A stretch of 64,000 nucleotides of DNA from Escherichia phage PSa2: sequence record OL770310; one strand, 5' to 3'. This document shows, piece after piece, positions 8,603-18,213 of this stretch (position 1 is its first letter; every line of letters begins with the position of its first letter). The notes under the pieces were generated by a model. It made no database searches and had not been told where the DNA came from. It saw only the letters and a list, made by a program, of their open reading frames with translations. Position numbers and translations under genes: made by a program.

Positions 8603-9355
8603 TTACACCTTCCCCATATCCTTAAAGATATCGTAGAATGCTTTAGACTCTGGTGAGCGAACGTTGTCGATCAGTTCGATCATAGAGAAAGGAGAGTTTT
8701 CGTACTTCTCATAGACTTCCATAAGAAGTGCTAGACCTGAATCACCCTTGATGTCTTTCTGAGCTATATCCCCACAGATAATTAAACGACAATCTTGTCC
8801 TACACGAGTCAGGAGACAGATCATTGCTTCAACGGAGATATTCTGAGCTTCATCGACAATAACATAGGAGTTGTTGAAAGTTCGGCCACGGGCATGTTCG
8901 ATAGCCAGGAATTTGATTTTCTGACGTTCGACATATCCTTTGTAGGCGTGATCACCGATTGCCCATTTCATGCCATCGGCTATTGGTTCCAACCAAGGCT
9001 CTAGCTTTTCTGCTAGATCACCTGGGAGCATACCAAGAGATTTACCTAGAGGTTCGTTCGGACGCACGAGGATCACTTGCTCAATATCTGAGTGAATGTC
9101 TACGAGTTCCTGAGCTGCAATAACGGATGGAATAAAGGTTTTACCAGTACCTGGTTCACCAATACCCACAGTCACTGTGTTGTTCTTGATCATATTGATA
9201 TATGATTTTTGCTCACGGTTTTTACCAACTAGGGATTTAGCAACTGGATTGGCGTAATCACCAGAGAAATCTGCTTGAATTACGTTACTCTCATACTTGT
9301 TGCCACGCTTTCTTGAACCATTGCGGTTCTCTCTTTTTTGACGTGCTTTTCCCAT
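8603..9355 (-). CDS. phoH: PhoH-like ATPase
   Basis: Walker A GEPGTGKT, Walker B IVDEAQN. The ATG at 9355 is preceded by AGGAG; the track start at 9364 is a GTG. Confidence 0.85.
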   Translation of the reverse strand: MGKARQKRENRNGSRKRGNKYESNVIQADFSGDYANPVAKSLVGKNREQKSYINMIKNNTVTVGIGEPGTGKTFIPSVIAAQELVDIHSDIEQVILVRPNEPLGKSLGMLPGDLAEKLEPWLEPIADGMKWAIGDHAYKGYVERQKIKFLAIEHARGRTFNNSYVIVDEAQNISVEAMICLLTRVGQDCRLIICGDIAQKDIKGDSGLALLMEVYEKYENSPFSMIELIDNVRSPESKAFYDIFKDMGKV

Positions 9356-9428
9356 AAATAACACTCCTATAGTGTACTTCGCTAACAGAGGATCAACAAA
9401 AAGATCTTGTTTATCAACTTACAAATAT

Positions 9429-9457
9429 ATTATACCAATATATGCGGGAGAAAGCAA
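9429..9457 (-). promoter_or_regulatory. sigma70-type promoter for phoH operon (TTGCTT-N17-TATAAT)
   Basis: Reverse complement reads TTGCTT, 17 nt spacer, TATAAT, then ATATATTTGTAAGTTGATAAACAAG resembling the plus-strand leader module. Confidence 0.55.
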
Positions 9458-9649
9458 CTACAATTTTAAATAAGCCTATGATATTGCATTTAAATAAAAA
9501 ATTTGCTTGCTTTTATTGGGAGATGTATGGTACTAGATAATCATTTTATATCGCGTACACGGGCGCGTGATTATACTATTTTTAATAGAGGTTGGCAAAT
9601 AAAATTTTTTGACTCAGATCAATTTACAGAATGTTATAGTAAAATATTG

Positions 9650-9678
9650 TTGACATCCGCCTTCGAATGAGTTATAAT
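9650..9678 (+). promoter_or_regulatory. consensus sigma70 promoter upstream of nrdD (TTGACA-N17-TATAAT)
   Basis: Perfect -35 and -10 hexamers with 17 nt spacer; AGGAGGG SD at 9697..9703, ATG at 9708. Confidence 0.65.
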
Positions 9679-9707
9679 AGTAGTCTTAGTTAGAGAAGGA
9701 GGGTATA

Positions 9708-11582
9708 ATGAATCGCAATGAAGAACTAAAGTATAAAGGAATGCAGTCCTTGATTCGAAACTGCAAAGAAATTATCGAAGGTTCAGCAGATGAAGAACTG
9801 CTGTTTAATAATGCCAATAAGCCCTCAGAACGTTTCCCTACACAAAGGGACATGCTTGCAGGGGAATTGAGTAAATATCTGATTCTGGAAGAAATGCCAA
9901 TCCAGATTCGAAATGCTCACATGATTGGTGATATTCACTTCCATGATGCTGATTACGCTGCGTTAGGTATGACTAACTGTTGCCTGGTTGCTTTGGAAGA
10001 TATGTTGAAAAACGGTATGAAGGTTGGTAATGCTGAAATCAGTACGCCAAACTCCATTACTACTGCGGCTGCTATTACAGCTCAGATTATTACTCAGGTT
10101 AGCTCCCATCAATATGGTGGTACTTCTGTAGACCGATTAGATGAAGTACTGGCTCCTTATGTTCGTAAGTCTTATGATAAGAATCATGCGTTTGCAAAGC
10201 GTTGGACTAAGGATGAAGCCAAAGCATCTGTAATGGCTACGGAAATGACTGAGAAAGAAGTTTACGATGCCTGTCAAGGTCTAGAGTATGAAATCAATAC
10301 GATGTTCAACTCTAATGGTCAGAGTCCATTTATTACCTTTGGTTTTGGTCTAGGAACTTCCTGGGAAGCACGTCTTGTACAGAAAGCAATCTTAGAAGTG
10401 CGTATGGATGGTTTGGGTATCAATAAACGTACAGCTATCTTCCCTAAACTGGTATTTGTTTTGCGTGATGGCGTAAACATGAAACCTGGTGATGTTAACT
10501 ATGATATCAAGAAGTTAGCTATGAAATGTACTGCTGAACGTATGTATCCTGACTACATCAGTTATGATAAGGTTGTAGAAGTTACGGGAGACTACAAAGT
10601 CTCTATGGGCTGTCGTTCATTCCTGGCTGCTGCGGAAGATGGTGAAACTTCTGGTCGTAACAACTTAGGCGTTGTTTCCGTAAACCTTCCTCGAATCGCT
10701 ATCGAAGCGGAAGGAAATATTGATCTATTCTTCGATCTGCTTGAGCTGCGTGTGGATACCGCGTTAAAAGCATTGGAGTGGAGGGTTGATCGCTTAAAAT
10801 ACATTCAAGCTAAAGCTGCGCCCATCCTCTATATGTCAGGAGCCTTTGGATTACGTCTGGGACCCGATGAATATGTATTTGATCATTTCTACAAGCGTGC
10901 TTCTGTATCTCTAGGATATATTGGTTGCCACGAAATGTTGCAGCTCATGTTTGGTAAAGATGTAGATACAATGTCTGAGTCTTGTATCAAGTTCGTTCAA
11001 CGTGTGCTACAATATATGCGTGATCGTGCTGATCAGAAGAAGGAAGAGACTCAATTAGGTTATAGTCTGTATGCTACACCATCTGAATCTCTATGTGATC
11101 GCTTTTGTCGCCTAGACCGTGAGTATTTCCCAGAGCATGAAGATATTCTGGCTAAAGGATATTACACTAACTCCCATCACCTTGATGTAGAACGTAAGGT
11201 TGCTCCAAACGTGAAGTTTGATTATGAGTCTAACTTTACCCCTATTGCTTCTGGTGGGTGCATTTCCTATGTGGAACTACCGGATATGAAACGATTCCCA
11301 GATGCGCTGGAATGGGTTATTAACTATGCCGCAAGTAAAGTTCATTACTTCGGTATTAATACTCCAGTAGACTCTTGTGGGGAATGTGGGTTCTTGGGTG
11401 AAACTATAGCTTCTGAGGATGGTTTCAAATGCCCTATTTGTGGCAACCATGATCCTGAGACTCTTGAGGTAACTCGTCGAGTTTGTGGCTATCTTGGAAA
11501 TCCAGGTGCTCGTCCGTTTAACCCAGGTAAACAACATGAGGTTATGGGTCGAGTGAAACATCAGGACATTCGCGCTAAATAA
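9708..11582 (+). CDS. nrdD: anaerobic ribonucleoside-triphosphate reductase (class III)
   Basis: 624 aa; C-terminal glycyl-radical motif (RVCGYLG) and zinc-ribbon cysteines (CGECG...CPICG). Confidence 0.9.
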   Translation: MNRNEELKYKGMQSLIRNCKEIIEGSADEELLFNNANKPSERFPTQRDMLAGELSKYLILEEMPIQIRNAHMIGDIHFHDADYAALGMTNCCLVALEDMLKNGMKVGNAEISTPNSITTAAAITAQIITQVSSHQYGGTSVDRLDEVLAPYVRKSYDKNHAFAKRWTKDEAKASVMATEMTEKEVYDACQGLEYEINTMFNSNGQSPFITFGFGLGTSWEARLVQKAILEVRMDGLGINKRTAIFPKLVFVLRDGVNMKPGDVNYDIKKLAMKCTAERMYPDYISYDKVVEVTGDYKVSMGCRSFLAAAEDGETSGRNNLGVVSVNLPRIAIEAEGNIDLFFDLLELRVDTALKALEWRVDRLKYIQAKAAPILYMSGAFGLRLGPDEYVFDHFYKRASVSLGYIGCHEMLQLMFGKDVDTMSESCIKFVQRVLQYMRDRADQKKEETQLGYSLYATPSESLCDRFCRLDREYFPEHEDILAKGYYTNSHHLDVERKVAPNVKFDYESNFTPIASGGCISYVELPDMKRFPDALEWVINYAASKVHYFGINTPVDSCGECGFLGETIASEDGFKCPICGNHDPETLEVTRRVCGYLGNPGARPFNPGKQHEVMGRVKHQDIRAK

Positions 11583-11589
11583 TGAATCA

Positions 11590-11625
11590 GCCAGGTTGCT
11601 AGTCGACCTGGCTTTTATTTTATTT
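11590..11625 (+). terminator. rho-independent terminator after nrdD
   Basis: Stem GCCAGGT/ACCTGGC with 9 nt loop, followed by TTTTATTTTATTT. Confidence 0.7.
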
Positions 11626-11652
11626 GCTTTCTAGCTAAAACTTATGTATAAT
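11624..11652 (+). promoter_or_regulatory. early promoter module (TTGCTT-N17-TATAAT)
   Basis: -35 TTGCTT 11624..11629, -10 TATAAT 11647..11652, then TGATTTATAAATTTGAGAGGAG leader and ATG at 11681. Confidence 0.65.
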
Positions 11653-11680
11653 TGATTTATAAATTTGAGAGGAGAAAGCT

Positions 11681-11962
11681 ATGAGTGAATTGCTTCCTAA
11701 AGTAGATGTTTCCCATCTTGGAGAGCCTAGTGAAGAACGTAAGGCTCTAGATTGGTTGGGCGGATTTGATTATCGTCGTGTTGTTGCAACATGGAATGAT
11801 AAGAAAGTTAAGAAGTTTCGGGTACATTATGTAGGTAAAGACAAGTGGCTCTGGATTGATTATGAAGAATCGAAGGGGTCTACTAAGGCTGTGAAAATTT
11901 ATCGTATGTATGGGTATTATTATGCTCACTGTGATAAGAATGAATTTACAGTACAGAACTAA
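11681..11962 (+). CDS. hypothetical protein
   Basis: 93 aa ORF directly behind a promoter/leader module. Confidence 0.5.
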   Translation: MSELLPKVDVSHLGEPSEERKALDWLGGFDYRRVVATWNDKKVKKFRVHYVGKDKWLWIDYEESKGSTKAVKIYRMYGYYYAHCDKNEFTVQN

Positions 11963-11971
11963 GGAACAAGA

Positions 11972-12175
11972 ATGAAAAACGTAAAACATCTCAAATATCG
12001 CTTAATTTACAACGGACGTATGGAAACAGAAGATCTAGCTCAGCTAGCGATCAATTCAGATGAAGTTACAGTTCGTGCTTTGTCCATCGAGAAGCTGCGT
12101 GCTTCTTACGAAAATCGTATTATGGAATTGGAGGAAAAACTTTATGGACTTCTTGAATCAGAATCTAAAAAGTAA
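11972..12175 (+). CDS. hypothetical small protein
   Basis: 67 aa ORF with SD-like AAGGAACAAG upstream. Confidence 0.35.
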   Translation: MKNVKHLKYRLIYNGRMETEDLAQLAINSDEVTVRALSIEKLRASYENRIMELEEKLYGLLESESKK

Positions 12176-12338
12176 TTTAGAAAATATGCTCATGGAGCAG
12201 TGGAATGCTGGGTATAATGCTGGAGTAGCTACCTGTATTGCTGGTTTGGATATGCTTATTAAGCAAGAGAAGGTTCGCCCAGAAGAAGCAATTCTGCTCC
12301 AAAATATCATCGAAGGATTCAAGCAAGGAATCGTATAA
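12144..12338 (+). CDS. hypothetical small protein (ORF track 12060..12338; internal Met with GGAGGAAAA SD preferred)
   Basis: ORF track; SD GGAGGAAAA 7 nt upstream of the ATG at 12144. Confidence 0.35.
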   Translation: MDFLNQNLKSNLENMLMEQWNAGYNAGVATCIAGLDMLIKQEKVRPEEAILLQNIIEGFKQGIV

Positions 12339-13152
12339 TGCGTAGACTAATCGTTGTTAGTGGTGCAGGTTTGAGTGTAGATAGTGGTGTTCGTGCTTTC
12401 CGTACTGATACTGCTAGTGGGAAATCCTTGTGGGATGAGTACGATCTAGAGGAAGTATGTAATATTCATGCCTTTCGTGGTAATTTTACCATAAAACTCA
12501 TATGTTTTACAACAAACGTCGTGAAGAGTTACAAACTGTTGAACCTAACCTAGCTCATTTGCGTATTGGTGAATGGTATAAACGGTATCCAAATCAAGTG
12601 GTAAACCTTACTACCAATGTTGATGATCTAATCGAACGTGCTGGAGTGCCGAGAGAAGATATACTCCATATTCATGGATATCTGAAAGAAATTATTGTAG
12701 AGCATGCGTTCGACCAGACACGTGATGTTATTGATATTGGGTATAGTTCTATTGATCCAGATGACTTTGATTGGGTTAAACCTAACGTTATCTTCTTTGG
12801 TGAGGTTGCTCCTGCCTATAAAACAATGTATGAGGTTTTTGATGGTATCACCAGTCATGATATGATCATCATTGTTGGGTGCTCTAACCAAGTAATTAAC
12901 TTCTACTGGGAGCTATTTCCTGTTCTGAATCTTACTGCTGCAAAACTTATGGTAGTTAACTATTACGATAGTGCAGTAGCTATGGAACCAGGCTATCAGG
13001 GCATGACTCGTAGTGAAATGTATCAGTTAGAAGAACGTGGTATTCCTTACTGGAGTAAAGGTGCTGTGGATGCCTTTAGTGATCCCGATTTTATTGCTCG
13101 TGTGGAAGCTCATCTAGAAGGTAAACCCTATGTTCAACAAAAGCATGTGTGA
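12338..13152 (+). CDS. Sir2-family (sirtuin-like) NAD-dependent protein, reading frame interrupted near 12484..12505
   Basis: Frame-2 ORF 12338..12553 carries VVSGAGLSVDSGVRAFR...SLW (sirtuin NAD-binding signature); frame-1 ORF 12502..13152 carries FYNKRRE..PNLAHL, TTNVDDLIERAG, HIHG, VIFFGE, IIVGCS. Halves overlap in different frames. Confidence 0.6.
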
Positions 13153-13312
13153 TCTTTTAGTGTGGCCGGATGGTAGTTGGTGCTACCGTTTCGAATTTGC
13201 TACCGATGATTTCTCATGGAAGAGTGATGATTTCTGTGTTATCTATGAAGATACAGCAGAATGGAAAGAGTTCCTTATTAAGGAGGGAGAATATGGTGAA
13301 GAAGATTTTTAA
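13130..13312 (+). CDS. hypothetical small acidic protein
   Basis: 60 aa ORF ending EYGEEDF; overlaps the Sir2-like stop. Confidence 0.35.
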   Translation: MFNKSMCDLLVWPDGSWCYRFEFATDDFSWKSDDFCVIYEDTAEWKEFLIKEGEYGEEDF

Positions 13313-13478
13313 GGGTATCTGGAAAGGTCTAGTATGGTTTGTCAACCTAATCGGTATGATTACCATTTATTCTCTGTTCCTATCTGTTATGTGGGGTAAA
13401 GGTGAGCTGAAGGTTCCAGTTCCTTTTACTGATGAAGTTAAAGTCTGGACGTGGGATGCTACTGGTGGAAATAAGTAA
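13293..13478 (+). CDS. small membrane protein (track ORF 13170..13478; SD-supported start 13293)
   Basis: AAGGAGGG SD then ATG; MVKKIFKGIWKGLVWFVNLIGMITIYSLFLSVMW has one clear TM helix. Confidence 0.4.
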   Translation: MVKKIFKGIWKGLVWFVNLIGMITIYSLFLSVMWGKGELKVPVPFTDEVKVWTWDATGGNK

Positions 13479-13971
13479 TACTCCTATAATTTTCCTGGAT
13501 ATTGATGGGGTGCTCAATTCGAGCATCTCTCACCATCATGCTCCAGATAGTGAAAAGCTATTCTTTGGTAGTGATTGGGTTTATAAGCCATTACTCCAGG
13601 CTTTTCAGAACTTCCTTAAACCTTCTCCAATAATGATTGTTGGGGTATCTTCATGGTTTTCTGTACGAAACGAGATGGAGAACGTCCAGATTATGACCGG
13701 ACTCGGTTTGATCGATCGTTTCCTTGGTACAACAGATTTTACTGGAGGTGGTTTATCTCGAGGTAATTCTGTCTTACGTTTCGTAGAAAAACATAAGCTC
13801 AAGCATTGGTGCGTCCTAGATGATGCTGGTGCTATGATGTACCAATTTCCTACTGTTATTGTAAATGGCAGGACTGGAATAAACCTTCAAGATTTAAATA
13901 CTATCAGCTATATGCTGGAATTTAGTCCAGATCTTGAAATGTGTAAGGCTCTTCAGAAACTCAAGGTGTAA
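13432..13971 (+). CDS. HAD-superfamily phosphatase (possible nucleotidase)
   Basis: HAD motif I IIFLDIDGVLN near the N-terminus; alternative start at 13456. Confidence 0.6.
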   Translation: MKLKSGRGMLLVEISNTPIIFLDIDGVLNSSISHHHAPDSEKLFFGSDWVYKPLLQAFQNFLKPSPIMIVGVSSWFSVRNEMENVQIMTGLGLIDRFLGTTDFTGGGLSRGNSVLRFVEKHKLKHWCVLDDAGAMMYQFPTVIVNGRTGINLQDLNTISYMLEFSPDLEMCKALQKLKV

Positions 13972-13973
13972 AT

Positions 13974-14402
13974 ATGTTCGATAATCTTTTCATGAAAGAG
14001 GTAAATCCTATGCTCCTCAACTTCTGGCGTTCTCTCCCTAATGGTATGTATAATGAAACCATCAATCTGCTCAAGATTTGGTGTGAGAATAACGATATCT
14101 TCTTATCCTTTAAAGGCCCACTAGAGGAAGCTCCGTGTATTGGAGTTAGCGTGGATTTAGGGGAGGGAGTAGAAGAGATTGTAGACTGGAAAGAACTCGA
14201 TGAAATGGGTCTGGTTTTTGCCTTGAACCATAAGCTGTTTATGCCTGCAAATCACCGTCTTATTGTAAATTATCGCACTGGTGAAGCTCCTGCTTTCCAG
14301 GTAAATGAACGTGAGGGCTGGTCATATTCGCCCGAGGAAGTAAATGAGGGGATTCAGAAACTTCGTCGTTTCGGGTATATGATCCCAGGTTTAACTGCTT
14401 AA
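13974..14402 (+). CDS. hypothetical acidic protein, paralogue A
   Basis: 142 aa; shares W.ELDEMGLVFALN...TGEAP.FQV...GYMIPGL with the next ORF. Confidence 0.6.
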   Translation: MFDNLFMKEVNPMLLNFWRSLPNGMYNETINLLKIWCENNDIFLSFKGPLEEAPCIGVSVDLGEGVEEIVDWKELDEMGLVFALNHKLFMPANHRLIVNYRTGEAPAFQVNEREGWSYSPEEVNEGIQKLRRFGYMIPGLTA

Positions 14403-14411
14403 GGAGGCAGA

Positions 14412-14807
14412 ATGGAACAAGTATTTTGGCGTCAGATAGATCCTAGTTTGGTAGAGCGTGCTGAGGGGCTCCTTGCACGTTGGTTGGGGGTTGACAAGGT
14501 TAGTGTAACATTTCCGTTTACTTCTGTAACAGACCCTAGTGTAGGTGTCTTTGTGGACGAAGATGAAGATGATGGTTGGGAAGCTGACTGGAATGAATTG
14601 TCCAGCATGGGCTTGATTGTTGCCCTCAACTTCTCTATATTCCACCCACGTGGTTTAGCTATTACACGTGATCCCGAAACCGGTGAATCCCCTTATCTTT
14701 TGCAAGTAGAAGATGATATTTGGGAGTACACCGAAGGTATTCTCGAAGAAGCTAAAGGTCAATTAAATCGTATTGGGATCTATGTCCCGGGCCTAAATGA
14801 TGATTGA
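14412..14807 (+). CDS. hypothetical acidic protein, paralogue B
   Basis: 131 aa, net charge about -19 by hand count; WNELSSMGLIVALN...TGESPYLLQV...GIYVPGL. Confidence 0.6.
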   Translation: MEQVFWRQIDPSLVERAEGLLARWLGVDKVSVTFPFTSVTDPSVGVFVDEDEDDGWEADWNELSSMGLIVALNFSIFHPRGLAITRDPETGESPYLLQVEDDIWEYTEGILEEAKGQLNRIGIYVPGLNDD

Positions 14808-14898
14808 TTTTCATTAGCTCAATCCTGATTACCGAGTCATTTTGGCTCGGTTTTCTCTGTGCTCAAAGACACTGATAGCACCTTCGGAAAAATTTTAC

Positions 14899-14927
14899 TT
14901 GCAGGATGCTCAAAATCTTGATATAAT
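14899..14927 (+). promoter_or_regulatory. early promoter module with no ORF behind it (TTGCAG-N17-TATAAT)
   Basis: -35 TTGCAG 14899..14904, -10 TATAAT 14922..14927, leader ATTTATATTGAATTGAGAGACATT; no start codon in the expected position. Confidence 0.5.
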
Positions 14928-15423
14928 ATTTATATTGAATTGAGAGACATTAGTAAAAATTGATTTTGCTAATTTTTCTTGTTTACAATCCGCAATACGG
15001 AACAGTTAGGCTGCCCCATTAAGGGTTGTTTTAACTATTACTAGTGTTTATACTGCATTAGTTAATTATCAATTAAGTGATCTGCGTACCCTGAATTCGG
15101 AAAGGTAAATCCAAACCGTGCATATTTAGCTCGTTATATAGGCAGAGCTTTATATGGGGGTGCGAACGAAAAGAGCAGCGAATGGTGACACGTCCAGTAG
15201 CCACCTACCAATAGGATAGTGAGGGCAATCAGAATCGGCTTAGCGGCCAATGACCTAGGTTCTGATCTGGATAAGAGTTAAGAGAGCGCAGCACTGAGGT
15301 ATGATAACTTATTCATACTGCTTGATGATGATTAATGTTTGTGTAAATGGTAGTAATAGTTGTTCTATTCTTTTGAATAGTCCTAAAGAAAGATATTCGA
15401 ATAACCAACATAGGAGTATTGTT

Positions 15424-18213
15424 GTGTTCTCAATCCTACAAGGCCACGCAGGATTTTCCAGAGATAAAGCTACTGGCATCTGGAAAGAGATCAAAGTGGA
15501 AGATTATACCTTTGCAAAGCGATTCTCTAAAGAGCATCCAGAAGGTAAACCAGCTTCCATGCCCTTCAAATTTGATGTACTTGAAGAACTTGACCCGCAA
15601 AACCTTGCTGAAATGTTACCTATCATGCGTCGTCTTACCAAAGACCCGCATATTGTAGCTATTCGGGGTAAATGTCTAGCTCCAAAAGATAATGTGCGTC
15701 GTACCAGGGGAAACTTTAACGTATCCAATCCTAGTCATATTATTGCTATGGACGTGGATGGTATTGTAGATACTGGTGGCTATGACAAGTTTAATCTTGT
15801 TGGCATGGCACGTCATATTATTAAGATGTTGAATAGTATTAGTGAGGATATGTTTCCTCTTGATGCAGGGTTTATTGCCCATGCATCGTCTTCGGCTGGG
15901 TTAAAACCAGGTATCCGAATGCACTTAATGCTAGAATCTAATGTCAAGGTAACGCAGGGACAGTTAAAGTTCTTATTTACATCTATCAATGATAGTAGTA
16001 AGCAAAAGTACGGCTTTGATATTGCTGACTTAGCTTATTATTCTTCTGTTCAGCTTCACTATTTCGCAGATCCCTTATTTGATGATGGTATAGTCGATCC
16101 GTTTAAAGCGGAGAATAAACCACGTCTTGTGTATGTTAAGGGTTCGAAGGTAAATCTACCTAATAACCTAGTTGACTTTGAAACAACTAGAGGTGAGTTT
16201 AAAGAAGAGTTCTACTCCTTACTTGACCAAATTAAAGGCAAGAAGGCTGCATCTGATAAAGTGGAAGAAACCATCAGCGAACTAGAAGAAGCTGAGGATG
16301 GAGTGTACCTGCGTATTATTCCAAAACTTTATCACAGAGCGTTAGAAGATGGTGTTGACTTTACGTGGTTAGAACGTGAGATTAAACCAGCTTTATCTGA
16401 GTATATTGCGACTAAAGATAATAGTCGTAATATTCAAGATTACTTTAATAACGGTCGTAAGCAGGCTCTCAAAGCCTTTGTAAATAACTCCAAACGTGAG
16501 ATTCCACCAAACTTAAAAGGTGTACCATTAAAACGTCTAGACACAGATTCTCCACCAGAAGTTCCATACCTGAAAATTAACATTGTACCACCAAAAGGAC
16601 ATTTAACATTTGTTAAGGCAAGTCTTGGTACGGGTAAAACTACAGCAGTAACTAAGTGGCTAGATGCAGGTGTTCTTCCAGGGAACTTTATTGCAATCAC
16701 AAATACTAGAGCACTTGTATCTTCTAACGCGAAGAAATTCGGTGCTGGCCAGTATGATAAGTCAGTTGATATGCTGAACTTCAAACGTGGTGCTATTGAT
16801 CGTATGTCTTCAACTATTCACTCTATCCATAAGTTCAAGAGCTTTGTGGGTCAGATTGATACGATCTTTATTGATGAATGTGACGCAGTAATGAATGATC
16901 TGTTATTCGCTCCGGTTGTTAAAAACCGTCGTGAATGTATTCAGGTTCTTCGTGATATCCTTATTACTGCTAAAACTGTTATCTTATCTGATGGTGATAT
17001 CAGTGCAGAAACGATTGAAGCCTATGGTTCTTTGATTGATTTTGATAAACCAGTTGCATTCTATAATCATCACCGTAAAATGCTGGCGAAAGCTCACGCT
17101 TATGAATTCCCTGACGAATCCAGTATTTGGGTTGCACTTCAAACATCTCTAGAGATGGGTGAGAAGTCAATCCTAGTATCTGACTGTGGACCAGATGAAC
17201 TGAATGAAAAGGGAATGGCGTTACGTCGTAATACTGGTGCGTTAGTTAAAGAAATTCACTCAAACTCTACGTCTGATATAGATATCCGACGTATTCTGGA
17301 TTATACAACTAATGAGCTAATTGATCAACAGATTGATTGTTTGTTATGTAGTCCATCTGTAACGAGTGGTGTTGACTTTAACTATTTTGATAACGTATTC
17401 GTAATCACTAGAACCTCAAACCAAGCGCCAAACATGCGTTTTCAAGCAATCAGGCGCGACCGTGGTGCTCAGAACATTTATTATTTTATTGATAAATCTA
17501 CGAGTGGATTCTCTGCGGGTTCCGAGCAATATAATATTGACGAGGGTTGGATTGAGTTAGCTCAGCAACTGTACGCACGCCGTCGTGAGCTGGAATCTAG
17601 AAACTATACTAGTACTTTGCGCTATTATCTGCTTGATCAGGGTGCAACTATCGATATTTTCAGCGAAAGCTGGGGAACTATCGAAGGTGCAGGAAAAGAG
17701 TATACAGAAGAGCGAATCAAAGCTATTTTGCACTCAACTCCTGAATATTGTGCACCACGTCATGCAGATGCCTATGAAGCCAAGTTACTTCTGGTTCGCT
17801 ATTATCATCTGGATTCTATTAAAGATGTAACAGTGGAACACGTTGAACAGTATATCAAGGATAAACCAAACGATAGAGCTGCATTCTTCCATAAGATGCA
17901 CGAGATGTTCTGGGAAGATATTAAGAAGTGTTCAAATGTAACAATCAAACCGTTTATTGAAGCTCTTAAGAATAAGAAGAAGGATTTCTTCCTTAAGACA
18001 GGTCAGAGCGCTAACCCAAAATATGCTCGTATGTATCTTGGCATGATGGGTATCGGTAAAGATCTGGATACGGAAAAGATTGTGGACTGGTACAGAACTT
18101 ACTGTAAGATCGAATGTATGCCGATTCCAGTTAAGTTTATGACAGATGAAGAACGTCAGATGCATGAGGAAGCTCTTGCTGAATTGGGGGCTAGAAATGA
18201 CAGCGAAGAATAA
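15424..18213 (+). CDS. SF2 helicase, replication-origin-binding-protein type (ORF track start 15301; GTG 15424 with TAGGAG SD preferred)
   Basis: Walker A KASLGTGKTTAV, Walker B IFIDECDAV; ~930-970 aa. First ~40 track codons are low complexity. Confidence 0.7.
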   Translation: MFSILQGHAGFSRDKATGIWKEIKVEDYTFAKRFSKEHPEGKPASMPFKFDVLEELDPQNLAEMLPIMRRLTKDPHIVAIRGKCLAPKDNVRRTRGNFNVSNPSHIIAMDVDGIVDTGGYDKFNLVGMARHIIKMLNSISEDMFPLDAGFIAHASSSAGLKPGIRMHLMLESNVKVTQGQLKFLFTSINDSSKQKYGFDIADLAYYSSVQLHYFADPLFDDGIVDPFKAENKPRLVYVKGSKVNLPNNLVDFETTRGEFKEEFYSLLDQIKGKKAASDKVEETISELEEAEDGVYLRIIPKLYHRALEDGVDFTWLEREIKPALSEYIATKDNSRNIQDYFNNGRKQALKAFVNNSKREIPPNLKGVPLKRLDTDSPPEVPYLKINIVPPKGHLTFVKASLGTGKTTAVTKWLDAGVLPGNFIAITNTRALVSSNAKKFGAGQYDKSVDMLNFKRGAIDRMSSTIHSIHKFKSFVGQIDTIFIDECDAVMNDLLFAPVVKNRRECIQVLRDILITAKTVILSDGDISAETIEAYGSLIDFDKPVAFYNHHRKMLAKAHAYEFPDESSIWVALQTSLEMGEKSILVSDCGPDELNEKGMALRRNTGALVKEIHSNSTSDIDIRRILDYTTNELIDQQIDCLLCSPSVTSGVDFNYFDNVFVITRTSNQAPNMRFQAIRRDRGAQNIYYFIDKSTSGFSAGSEQYNIDEGWIELAQQLYARRRELESRNYTSTLRYYLLDQGATIDIFSESWGTIEGAGKEYTEERIKAILHSTPEYCAPRHADAYEAKLLLVRYYHLDSIKDVTVEHVEQYIKDKPNDRAAFFHKMHEMFWEDIKKCSNVTIKPFIEALKNKKKDFFLKTGQSANPKYARMYLGMMGIGKDLDTEKIVDWYRTYCKIECMPIPVKFMTDEERQMHEEALAELGARNDSEE

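What the first reader, a model, noticed from the sequence alone, without database searches (positions are those of the whole stretch)
11681..14807. Early accessory island between nrdD and the replication module
About 3.1 kb holds 8-10 short ORFs with no recognisable core-replication role: the interrupted Sir2-like gene, a HAD phosphatase (IIFLDIDGVLN), small acidic and single-TM proteins, and two acidic paralogues. It is driven by the strong early promoter at 11624..11652. Such small-gene clusters in early regions are where host-takeover and anti-defence functions usually sit.
Basis: inference. Interest (0 to 1): 0.6.

Follow-up and report, generated by a model that had tools for sequence, protein, structure and literature searches.

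The report
T5-family early sirtuin–phosphatase operon
The interval is one early operon that T5-like phages of E. coli and Salmonella almost all share; its conserved genes (an unusual sirtuin, broken here by a one-base deletion, a small phosphatase, and two copies of an unknown protein) have already been predicted, but never shown, to repair RNA cut by host defences, and only the tiny genes between them come and go.

Summary
Window 11681-14807 is one + strand unit of 9 genes (10 ORFs, because the Sir2 gene is split). It has a terminator and a P_N25-like promoter upstream and a terminator downstream. It is the EPS7 counterpart of T5 genes T5.100-T5.107.

"Accessory island" is only half right.
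- **Fixed core:** a Zn-less sirtuin, a capless HAD_SAK_2 phosphatase and two tandem DUF7415x2 paralogues. HAD and DUF7415b are each in about 434 of about 440 Tequinta/Epseptimavirus-type records, and the core recurs in Myunavirus, Sugarlandvirus and Pantoea phage AAS21.
- **Variable part:** three small ORFs (o1, o3 and the TM protein o7) are each present in only about half of those records.
- **Absent elsewhere:** the unit is missing from the Proteus, Vibrio and Aeromonas relatives examined.

The sirtuin-plus-SAK-HAD neighbourhood of T5-like phages is already described in the literature (Iyer et al. 2022) and predicted to heal RNA ends using NAD+. No experiment exists. The sirtuin is 58-64% identical to V5-like phage sirtuins that sit beside RNA ligase and polynucleotide kinase genes.

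In this window and in EPS7 the sirtuin is inactivated by a TTTTT>TTTT deletion. Seven close relatives keep the five-T run, and six of them have an intact gene.

DUF7415 has no known fold or function. Overall: ordinary, largely known, functionally untested.

The parts
11589..11613 (+). Intrinsic terminator ending the nrdD transcript
   Evidence: 10-bp stem with 6 GC pairs followed by a T run. It is 94% identical to the stretch annotated as a terminator in T5.
11624..11652 (+). Sigma-70 promoter of T5 early type (TTGCTT-17-TATAAT), followed by a GAGAGGAG Shine-Dalgarno sequence
   Evidence: Sequence read directly. Aligns with T5 P_N25 and with the annotated T5.100 promoter.
11681..11962 (+). o1: 93 aa, basic (pI 8.9), phrog_7953, function unknown. 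Variable head gene; the first gene of the unit in T5, My1 (and a gene next to Sir2 in AAS21) is instead of the T5.100 type
   Evidence: Present in 249 phage records.
11972..12175 (+). o2: 67 aa helical protein, phrog_5236. Orthologue of T5.101 (90% identical) and My1_097 (39%)
12144..12338 (+). o3: 64 aa, acidic (pI 4.6), phrog_5827. Variable; absent from T5
   Evidence: A GGAGG Shine-Dalgarno sequence lies before the ATG at 12144. Relatives annotate this start. Present in 229 records.
12338..13152 (+). Sirtuin (Sir2) gene of the phage-specific Zn-less clade, here a frameshifted pseudogene. The one-base deletion is in the T run at 12484-12487. The two ORF pieces are 12338-12553 and 12502-13152
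   Evidence: Pfam SIR2 matches both pieces. TTTT in the window and EPS7 against TTTTT in seven relatives. The intact 816-bp gene is annotated in six of those relatives. The repaired protein best matches CobB 1s5p at 8.4e-19.
13130..13312 (+). o6: 60 aa, very acidic (pI 4.05), Trp/Cys-rich, phrog_5116. Orthologue of T5.104; also present but unannotated in IME260
13293..13478 (+). o7: 61 aa single-pass membrane protein, phrog_11166. Variable
   Evidence: Hydrophobic segment at residues 14-32; AAGGAGG Shine-Dalgarno sequence. Present in 221 records.
13456..13971 (+). Capless HAD phosphatase of family HAD_SAK_2 (171 aa; an alternative ATG lies at 13432). Orthologue of T5.105
   Evidence: PF18143 E 4.6e-19. 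Invariant FLDIDGVLN, SSWF, TGGG..R and LDD motifs. AF2 model pLDDT 93.9. Nearest folds are MDP-1, SCP1 and UBLCP1.
13974..14402 (+). DUF7415 x2 protein a (142 aa, pI 4.67). Orthologue of T5.106
   Evidence: PF24187 E 9.1e-37, two repeats.
14412..14807 (+). DUF7415 x2 protein b (131 aa, pI 4.05). Orthologue of T5.107 and paralogue of protein a
   Evidence: PF24187 E 3.2e-28. 31% identical to protein a. AF2 model pLDDT 86, no solved structural relative.
14831..14851 (+). Intrinsic terminator closing the unit
   Evidence: 9-bp stem with 5 GC pairs and a T run. T5 annotates a terminator at the same place.

Best explanation
The interval is the EPS7-lineage copy of the T5 early operon T5.100-T5.107. 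Host RNA polymerase transcribes it from a P_N25-like promoter, and terminators bound it on both sides.

**Conserved core**
- A phage-specific sirtuin that lacks the Zn-binding cysteines.
- A capless (C0) HAD phosphatase of the HAD_SAK_2 family.
- Two tandem paralogues built from DUF7415 repeats.

Small exchangeable ORFs sit between and ahead of these genes.

**Most likely function (inferred, not shown)**
The most likely function is NAD+-dependent healing of broken RNA ends, mainly tRNA cut by host anticodon nucleases or other metal-independent RNases.
- The sirtuin would use NAD+ the way KptA/Tpt1 does, removing a 2'-phosphate as ADP-ribose cyclic phosphate.
- The HAD enzyme would remove a terminal phosphate from the RNA, or from the ADP-ribose-phosphate by-product.
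- Sealing would be left to a host ligase.
- DUF7415 proteins would be accessory or regulatory partners of unknown mechanism.

**In this phage**
The sirtuin step is probably dead because of a one-base deletion, so only the HAD, DUF7415 and small proteins would be made.

**Shown versus inferred**
- Shown: the anatomy, conservation, family memberships and the frameshift.
- Inferred: substrates, the RNA-repair role and the role of DUF7415.
For: **Operon anatomy**
-.

**Core conservation**
- HAD is in 434 records and DUF7415b in 434 records, against 440 records carrying the flanking origin-binding protein at >=80% identity.
- The same block is in T5, My1 and IME260.
- In Pantoea phage AAS21 the gene order is rearranged but HAD and Sir2 stay two genes apart.

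**Published prediction**
- Iyer et al. 2022 (PMC9503650, section 3.7.3) describe exactly this sirtuin plus 'Swiss-army-knife' HAD neighbourhood in phages typified by SP15. They predict KptA-like RNA repair.

**Tested here**
- The T5-type sirtuin is 58-64% identical to the sirtuins of Vequintavirus CarlMeissner and Mydovirus KpS8. Those lie in cassettes with RNA ligase, polynucleotide kinase or ATPase, and phosphoesterase genes.
- Its NAD-site motifs GAGxS, FR, TTNVDDL and HG are invariant.
- The HAD catalytic motifs are invariant across 19 homologues down to 26% identity.
- HAD_SAK_2 homologues lie near RNA ligases in Aeh1 (three genes from rnlA) and on a 175-kb metagenomic contig (four genes from an RNA_ligase gene).
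- A DUF7415 gene lies immediately downstream of rnlA in Aeh1.
- Vibrio members of the same family carry a canonical phosphatase, RNA ligase, ATPase and phosphoesterase cassette. RNA repair is therefore a recurring theme in Demerecviridae.
Against: - No experiment exists for any gene of the unit. Searches for T5.100-T5.107 in the paper library found nothing, and no experimental paper on the phage sirtuin appeared.
- No RNA ligase, polynucleotide kinase, phosphoesterase or MazG homologue is in the 64-kb window or in T5 55-75 kb. The Rnl1-type ligase is essentially absent from Salmonella and E. coli T5-like records. The pathway would therefore lack its own sealing enzyme. Rnl2 and RtcB families were not tested.
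- Sugarlandvirus keeps the sirtuin and DUF7415 without HAD.
- DUF7415 partners point as much to nucleotide metabolism as to RNA repair: fusions to a dATP/dGTP pyrophosphohydrolase and to a thymidylate-kinase-like domain, and a position between nrdD and nrdG in Jiaodavirus.
- The nearest solved relative of the sirtuin is the protein deacylase CobB.
- The sirtuin is broken in this phage and in EPS7, so it is dispensable at least during propagation.
Confidence: 0.45

Rival explanations
1. Nucleotide or NAD-metabolite housekeeping. The unit would be the tail end of the phage nucleotide-metabolism module (nrdA, nrdB, phoH, nrdD). The HAD would be a nucleotidase or ADP-ribose-phosphate phosphatase acting on small molecules. 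The sirtuin would consume or regulate through NAD+. DUF7415 proteins would be adaptor subunits of nucleotide enzymes.
For: - The unit directly follows nrdD.
- DUF7415 is fused to a dATP/dGTP pyrophosphohydrolase (P0117, P0122) and to a thymidylate-kinase-like domain (P0075).
- DUF7415 lies between nrdD and nrdG in Jiaodavirus and near a Nudix hydrolase and the dNMP kinase gene in KP15.
- In Aeh1 the HAD gene sits between td and nrdA.1.
- In AAS21 the unit abuts phoH, nrdA, nrdB, DHFR and thymidylate synthase.
Against: - The HAD model has no cap domain. Small-molecule HADs usually have one, and the best structural neighbours are capless enzymes acting on macromolecular substrates.
- The family is curated as an RNA-repair HAD.
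- The same sirtuin clade sits with RNA ligase and polynucleotide kinase genes, not with nrd genes, in V5-like phages.
Confidence: 0.2
2. Host takeover by protein modification. The sirtuin would deacylate or ADP-ribosylate host or phage proteins, as CobB does. The capless HAD would be a protein phosphatase. The acidic DUF7415 and o6 proteins would bind and inhibit host factors.
For: - The best solved and NCBIfam matches of the sirtuin are CobB-type deacylases.
- The nearest HAD folds, MDP-1, SCP1, UBLCP1 and Fcp1, are protein phosphatases.
- The unit is expressed early from a P_N25-like promoter.
- The DUF7415 proteins are acidic, pI 4.05-4.67.
Against: - The sirtuin scores far below every CobB family cut-off (97.8 bits against 243) and lacks the Zn module of canonical deacylases.
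- Conserved neighbours across phage families are RNA-end enzymes.
Confidence: 0.2
3. One reading: a variable accessory island of independent small anti-defence or host-takeover genes that are gained and lost between relatives.
For: - o1, o3 and o7 are each present in only about half of the related records.
- The first gene is exchanged for a T5.100-type gene in T5 and My1.
- Recombination breakpoints lie inside the unit.
- The slot holds other genes in the Proteus and Vibrio relatives, and nothing annotated in the Aeromonas relative.
Against: - The four largest genes are syntenic. HAD and DUF7415b are each in about 434 of 440 records, and the block is shared across Demerecviridae lineages.
- No PADLOC match for any gene.
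- The small variable ORFs have no recognisable domains at all.
Confidence: 0.1
4. The Sir2 split is functional. A programmed -1 slip on the U UUU run would restore the full-length sirtuin at a controlled level.
For: A -1 P-site slip of tRNA-Phe from UUU (12485-12487) to UUU (12484-12486) would recreate exactly the ancestral protein sequence GNFYHKTH... This is read directly.
Against: - Seven close relatives carry five Ts at this site, and six of them encode the uninterrupted gene.
- The four-T allele is confined to one 0.9-kb segment identical between the window and EPS7, which points to a single inherited mutation.
- There is no canonical X XXY YYZ heptamer and no downstream structure (MFE -8.7 kcal/mol, z -0.75).
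- The C-terminal piece has no Shine-Dalgarno sequence.
Confidence: 0.03

Closest known systems
Type 3 phage sirtuin neighbourhood of Iyer, Burroughs, Anantharaman and Aravind 2022 (Viruses 14:1977, PMC9503650, section 3.7.3): sirtuin plus 'Swiss-army-knife-like' HAD phosphatase in phages typified by Escherichia phage SP15
   Same: The same two gene families (distinct-clade sirtuin and HAD_SAK) occur in a conserved neighbourhood of T5-like phages, with no adjacent Macro domain. The functional prediction adopted here is theirs.
   Different: - Their description, as read in section 3.7.3, names only the sirtuin and the HAD.
- Added here: the pair of DUF7415x2 proteins, the conserved o2 and o6 small proteins, the operon boundaries, and the swappable small ORFs.
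- In this phage the sirtuin is frameshifted.
- The published prediction is computational only.
Bacteriophage T5 genes T5.100-T5.107 (NC_005859), between nrdD (T5.099) and the origin-binding protein (T5.108)
   Same: Same position, same terminator-promoter-terminator boundaries, and orthologous T5.101, T5.102 (Sir2), T5.104, T5.105 (HAD), T5.106 and T5.107.
   Different: - T5 has T5.100 (126 aa) where the window has o1.
- T5 lacks o3 and the TM protein o7.
- T5 has an extra o6-like paralogue (T5.103).
- T5 has an intact sirtuin.
Type 2 neighbourhood in V5-like phages (Vequintavirus, Mydovirus): RNA ligase, cREC, nucleotide kinase, phosphoesterase, MazG and sirtuin
   Same: The sirtuin is from the same clade (58-64% identity, same motifs, no Zn cysteines).
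   Different: - The window has none of the ligase, kinase, phosphoesterase or MazG genes.
- The window has HAD_SAK_2 and DUF7415 instead.
- DUF7415 is absent from the two V5-like loci examined.
KptA/Tpt1 RNA 2'-phosphotransferase step of tRNA ligation
   Same: The proposed chemistry: NAD+-dependent removal of a 2'-phosphate from RNA.
   Different: KptA has an ADP-ribosyltransferase fold, not a sirtuin fold. The analogy is a hypothesis, and no activity has been measured.
T4 Pnk plus Rnl1 heal-and-seal tRNA repair against PrrC
   Same: The proposed biological purpose. A capless HAD phosphatase carries out end-healing in T4 Pnk (established knowledge, not tested here).
CobB / class III sirtuin protein deacylases
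   Same: Best sequence match among solved structures (1s5p, 8.4e-19). The Rossmann NAD-binding motifs and the catalytic His are shared.
   Different: It scores far below the NCBIfam CobB cut-offs. The Zn-binding cysteines are missing; the protein has only two Cys residues, neither in that region.

Membership tests
Sir2 superfamily (PF02146) | Significant match to the family profile over the whole domain | tested here: met
   The C-terminal piece scores 54.5 bits (cut-off 24) on profile positions 48-178. The N-terminal piece covers positions 1-37 at 18.5 bits. Together they span the domain.
Sir2 superfamily (PF02146) | NAD-site motifs GAGxS, FR and (T/Q)N(I/V)D, and the catalytic His of the HG motif | tested here: met
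   All are present and invariant in six phage homologues, and they align with the same motifs in CobB.
Sir2 superfamily (PF02146) | An uninterrupted reading frame, so that a functional enzyme is made in this genome | tested here: not met
   A one-base deletion in the T run at 12484-12487 splits the gene. No frameshift signal is present.
CobB-type NAD-dependent protein deacylase | Score above the curated NCBIfam cut-off | tested here: not met
   The best score is 97.8 bits against a cut-off of 243 (NF001753), and 85.5 against 320 (NF040867).
CobB-type NAD-dependent protein deacylase | Zn-binding cysteine module | tested here: not met
   There are no cysteines in the region aligned to the Cys-containing segment of CobB. 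None of the six phage homologues has them.
Defence-type SIR2 NADases (Thoeris ThsA, DSR, SIR2-HerA and others) | Match to a PADLOC SIR2 defence model | tested here: not met
   No PADLOC family matches at E <= 0.01.
HAD superfamily phosphatase | Motif I DxDx(T/V), motif II S/T, motif III K/R and motif IV DD | tested here: met
HAD_SAK_2 (PF18143, HAD of 'Swiss Army Knife' RNA-repair proteins) | Score above the Pfam gathering threshold over the full profile | tested here: met
   69.6 bits against 27.5, on profile positions 1-138 of 139.
HAD_SAK_2 (PF18143) | Activity on terminal phosphates of RNA | not testable with these tools
   Only indirect support: a capless C0 architecture, and RNA ligase genes near homologues.
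DUF7415 (PF24187) | Score above the gathering threshold | tested here: met
   125.5 and 98.1 bits against a cut-off of 27, with two repeats per protein.
Type 3 sirtuin-HAD RNA-repair neighbourhood (Iyer et al. 2022) | A distinct-clade sirtuin and a SAK-type HAD in one conserved neighbourhood of a T5-like phage, with no adjacent Macro domain | tested here: met
   No Macro domain was found in any ORF of the unit.
Type 3 sirtuin-HAD RNA-repair neighbourhood (Iyer et al. 2022) | It actually repairs RNA | not testable with these tools
   No experimental paper was found.
Complete heal-and-seal RNA repair cassette (T4 or V5 type) | Phage-encoded RNA ligase and 5'-kinase | tested here: not met
   tblastn with ligase, polynucleotide kinase, phosphoesterase, ATPase and MazG proteins from CarlMeissner, KpS8, Aeh1 and KP15 found nothing in the 64-kb window. 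The Rnl1-type ligase is rare in Salmonella phage records (14 records). The rest of the genome and other ligase families were not examined.
Variable accessory or anti-defence island | Gene content varies between close relatives | tested here: inconclusive
   Met for o1, o3 and o7 (249, 229 and 221 records) and for the first gene. Not met for HAD and DUF7415b (each about 434 of 440 records), nor for the syntenic Sir2 and DUF7415a in the loci examined.

The most novel reading that the evidence does not exclude
The Zn-less sirtuin, the capless HAD and the tandem DUF7415 proteins together form a self-contained, ligase-independent, NAD+-using counter-defence module of enterobacterial T5-like phages. 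DUF7415 has a new fold. It is also found beside rnlA, Nudix and nrdD/nrdG genes and fused to MazG-like and kinase-like enzymes in other phages. In this reading it would be a previously unrecognised adaptor or inhibitor domain that couples nucleotide or RNA-end enzymes to their targets, or that blocks a host RNase or NADase.
Probability: 0.15. Interest if true: 0.7.

Novelty: already known. Interest (0 to 1): 0.3.

Why it matters
- **An open question.** Phage-encoded sirtuins are widespread, and none of this clade has a demonstrated activity. If the KptA-like RNA-repair prediction is right, T5-like phages carry a second, NAD+-dependent answer to tRNA-cleaving immunity, alongside their own tRNA genes.
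- **A practical opening.** EPS7-type phages with the TTTT allele are natural sirtuin-null relatives of phages such as bombadil and GRNsp8, about 97% identical across the unit, that keep the gene intact. That gives a ready-made comparison for phenotype tests.
- **A new candidate component.** The recurrent DUF7415 association flags an uncharacterised domain.
- **Otherwise.** The locus is an ordinary, already annotated part of T5-family genomes.

Tried and rejected
- **T-run alleles in IMG/VR.** Exact-pattern scans for both alleles gave 0 hits each, so nothing could be said about their frequency in metagenomes.
- **Non-coding RNAs.** An Rfam scan of 9000-16000 gave nothing relevant.
- **Literature.** Full-text search for T5.100, T5.102, T5.103 and T5.105-T5.107 found 0 papers. 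Searches for phage sirtuin experiments found only the computational surveys.
- **DUF7415 fold.**
  - BFVD returned only other DUF7415 proteins.
  - The afdb50 library was unavailable.
- **HAD.** A sequence search of the PDB found no relative. The fold search was informative instead.
- **Defence and naming libraries.** PADLOC and NCBIfam scans of the small ORFs found nothing.
- **Programmed frameshift.** Rejected.
- **Sequencing error.** The idea that the Sir2 split is a sequencing error of this record alone is weakened, because EPS7 shares it on an identical 0.9-kb segment. It cannot be excluded without the reads.
- **My own error.** In the first tblastn matrix the HAD query was taken out of frame. 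HAD presence therefore rests, not on that column.

Full report
**What the window is**

Megablast of 11500-15000 finds 528 phage records. The best is Escherichia phage EPS7 at 97.3% over the full length. The window is therefore an Epseptimavirus, a T5-like phage of the family Demerecviridae. The interval lies between nrdD (9708-11582) and the gene for the origin-binding protein.

**Checking the observation**

- The + strand carries nine genes whose ends overlap or nearly touch: o1 (11681-11962), o2 (11972-12175), o3 (12144-12338), Sir2 (12338-13152), o6 (13130-13312), o7 (13293-13478), HAD (13456-13971), and two paralogues (13974-14402 and 14412-14807).
- Pfam assigns the two Sir2 pieces to SIR2 profile positions 1-37 and 48-178. 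It assigns the IIFLDIDGVLN protein to HAD_SAK_2 (E 4.6e-19). Each paralogue gets two DUF7415 repeats (E 9.1e-37 and 3.2e-28).
- The paralogues are 31% identical (E 5e-20) and acidic. o6 has pI 4.05, and o7 has one clear hydrophobic helix.
- A GC-rich hairpin with a T tail follows nrdD at 11589-11613, and another closes the unit at 14831-14851.
- The promoter TTGCTT-17-TATAAT at 11624-11652 is real. It aligns almost base for base, including the downstream leader and Shine-Dalgarno region, with T5 promoter P_N25 and with the promoter annotated before T5.100. From established knowledge, P_N25 is one of the strongest E. coli RNA polymerase promoters. 'Strong early promoter' is therefore a reasonable inference, though it was not measured here.

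**The interrupted sirtuin**

- The window and EPS7 read GGTAATTTTACC. Bombadil, SB6, 8sent65, KFSSM, PMBT31, GRNsp8 and MET_P1-197_41 read GGTAATTTTTACC. All of these except MET_P1-197_41, whose record is indel-ridden, annotate one 816-bp gene. The split is therefore a one-base deletion in a T5 run.
- The window is not EPS7; the two differ at 90 positions in 3.3 kb. It is, however, identical to EPS7 from about 12457 to 13380, while its head (11781-12180) is bombadil/KFSSM-like. The deletion thus sits on a shared mosaic segment and looks like one inherited event.
- A -1 slip on U UUU would restore the ancestral protein. There is no heptamer signal and no downstream structure (z -0.75), and the C-terminal piece has no ribosome-binding site.
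- I treat the gene as a pseudogene in this lineage. Sequencing error is a minor alternative.

**How variable the interval is**

The flanking origin-binding protein is found in 906 records, 440 of them at >=80% identity; that group is the Tequintavirus/Epseptimavirus set. These counts include duplicate GenBank/RefSeq entries and some partial records.

| Gene | Records with a match |
|---|---|
| HAD (>=80% identity) | 434 |
| DUF7415b (>=60% identity) | 434 |
| o1 | 249 |
| o3 | 229 |
| o7 | 221 |

- T5 itself has the same unit, annotated with the same terminator, promoter and terminator (T5.100-T5.107).
- Orthology with T5: o2 = T5.101, Sir2 = T5.102, o6 = T5.104, HAD = T5.105, and the paralogues = T5.106 and T5.107. 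T5.100 replaces o1, and o3 and o7 are missing from T5.

| Relative | Content of the slot |
|---|---|
| My1 (Mccorquodalevirinae) | T5.100-like, o2-like, Sir2, a TM protein, HAD, a second small TM protein (My1_101), one DUF7415x2 protein |
| Klebsiella phage IME260 (Sugarlandvirus) | Sir2, an unannotated o6-like ORF and two full DUF7415x2 proteins; no HAD |
| Pantoea phage AAS21 | HAD, T5.100-like, Sir2 in a different order; no DUF7415 |
| Proteus, Vibrio and Aeromonas relatives | Other genes in the slot, or nothing annotated |

In short, there is a fixed enzymatic core with exchangeable small ORFs, and the whole unit is restricted to some lineages of the family.

**What the core genes are**

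*Sirtuin*
- The repaired protein best matches E. coli CobB (1s5p, 8.4e-19). It keeps the GAGxS, FR, TTNVDDL and HG motifs.
- It has no Zn-binding cysteines. It scores far below the CobB family cut-offs and matches no PADLOC defence model.
- It is 58-64% identical to the sirtuins of Vequintavirus CarlMeissner and Mydovirus KpS8. Those lie in cassettes with RNA ligase, polynucleotide kinase or ATPase, phosphoesterase and MazG genes.

*HAD*
- All four catalytic motifs are invariant across 19 homologues.
- Homologues lie three genes from rnlA in Aeromonas phage Aeh1 and four genes from an RNA ligase on a metagenomic contig.

*DUF7415*
- A profile search of 1.84 billion representative proteins finds only 160 relatives.
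- Single-repeat versions occur in T4-like phages: immediately after rnlA (Aeh1), two genes after a Nudix hydrolase (KP15), and between nrdD and nrdG (Jiaodavirus).
- A few are fused to a dATP/dGTP pyrophosphohydrolase or to a thymidylate-kinase-like domain.

**Comparison with what is known**

Iyer, Burroughs, Anantharaman and Aravind (2022, PMC9503650, section 3.7.3) already describe a distinct clade of phage sirtuins in three neighbourhood types. The third type is 'typified by Escherichia phage SP15'. [quoted passage not shown] They propose that the sirtuin acts like KptA to remove 2'-phosphates from cleaved RNA, and that the HAD processes the RNA end or the ADP-ribose-phosphate product.

The window is a member of that described neighbourhood. 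My tests agree with the clade assignment and with the neighbourhood's conservation. They add the DUF7415 pair, the conserved o2 and o6 genes, and the operon boundaries.

No experimental work on these genes was found.

**Most likely mechanism and its weak points**

I adopt NAD+-dependent RNA-end healing as the best-supported function, at about 0.45 confidence.

Points against it:
- No ligase, kinase or phosphoesterase is in the 64-kb window.
- The Rnl1-type ligase is essentially confined to other phage groups. These include Vibrio members of the same family, which carry a classical phosphatase-ligase-ATPase-phosphoesterase cassette instead.
- Sealing would therefore have to rely on a host enzyme such as RtcB. 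This is an inference.
- DUF7415's partners point equally to nucleotide metabolism.
- The sirtuin is dispensable for propagation in the EPS7 lineage.

Rivals:
- A nucleotide or NAD-metabolite role (0.2).
- Protein-directed host takeover (0.2).
- The literal 'bag of accessory genes' reading (0.1), which fits only the small ORFs.

**Verdict**

- The locus is already annotated in T5-family genomes. Its core neighbourhood is already described and functionally predicted in the literature, so novelty is low.
- What remains open is the experimental function of the sirtuin-HAD pair and the nature of DUF7415. The natural sirtuin-null allele offers a convenient handle for testing.

Noticed in passing
window 14852-15423 (between the unit's terminator and the likely start of the origin-binding-protein gene): This non-coding stretch of about 570 nt, taken with its flanks, is 91.5% identical to T5 over 14808-15560. 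The coding DNA of the unit is only 78-82% identical to T5. It holds a promoter-like site at 14960-14989. A 25-nt block at 14995-15019 is 96% identical in the distant phage My1. It could be a regulatory leader, a small RNA or an origin element. No Rfam family matches.
   Followed up: partly
L005 (Salmonella phage KFSSM) 4949-5401, equivalent to a point after window 14851: KFSSM carries an extra 150-aa HNH_3 homing-endonuclease gene inserted in that same intergenic region.
   Followed up: partly
window 13456-13971 and 14412-14807; L001, L006: Annotation errors are propagating in public records. The HAD_SAK_2 gene is labelled 'Sir2 (NAD-dependent deacetylase)' in the RefSeq records of EPS7, T5 and others. 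This comes through phrog_18062, which is really the C-terminal half of the HAD protein. DUF7415b is called 'tail tube protein' in JLBYU43 and 'phage exonuclease' in T5_ev219.
   Followed up: yes
L026 (Vibrio phage Bennett) 4184-7209 and 8322-10900: Vibrio members of the same family lack the sirtuin-HAD unit. Elsewhere in the genome they carry a NinI-like phosphatase, RNA ligase, ATPase and phosphoesterase cassette, next to PRPP synthetase and nicotinamide phosphoribosyltransferase genes. The two kinds of putative RNA-repair kit look mutually exclusive within Demerecviridae.
   Followed up: partly
window 11781-12180 versus 12457-13380: There is a recombination mosaic inside the operon. The head is nearly identical to bombadil and KFSSM (0-2 mismatches per 200 nt) and unlike EPS7 (11-21 mismatches). 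The sirtuin C-terminal part through o7 is identical to EPS7 and differs from the others by 6-11 mismatches per 200 nt.
   Followed up: yes
window 9570-9678: Back-to-back promoter consensus sites lie in the divergent region upstream of nrdD. One is a perfect 12/12 TTGACA-17-TATAAT on the + strand at 9650-9678. The other is an 11/12 site on the - strand at 9598-9570.
   Followed up: no
L010 (Proteus phage VTCCBPA139) 5431-6069: In this Novosibvirus the whole slot between nrdD and the origin-binding gene is filled by a single 212-aa ORF. It has no Pfam match and no similarity to any gene of the window's unit.
   Followed up: no
window 15301-15423: The long ORF for the origin-binding protein opens at 15301 with an odd Cys/Asn-rich extension. 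T5 and EPS7 annotate a start equivalent to about 15424, so the first 40 or so codons are probably not translated.
   Followed up: no
L015 (Salmonella phage MET_P1-197_41): This 41.7-kb record, deposited as a complete genome, shows 15 gap openings against the window in 3.3 kb and several split genes, including Sir2 and HAD. This suggests a low-quality assembly rather than biology.
   Followed up: partly
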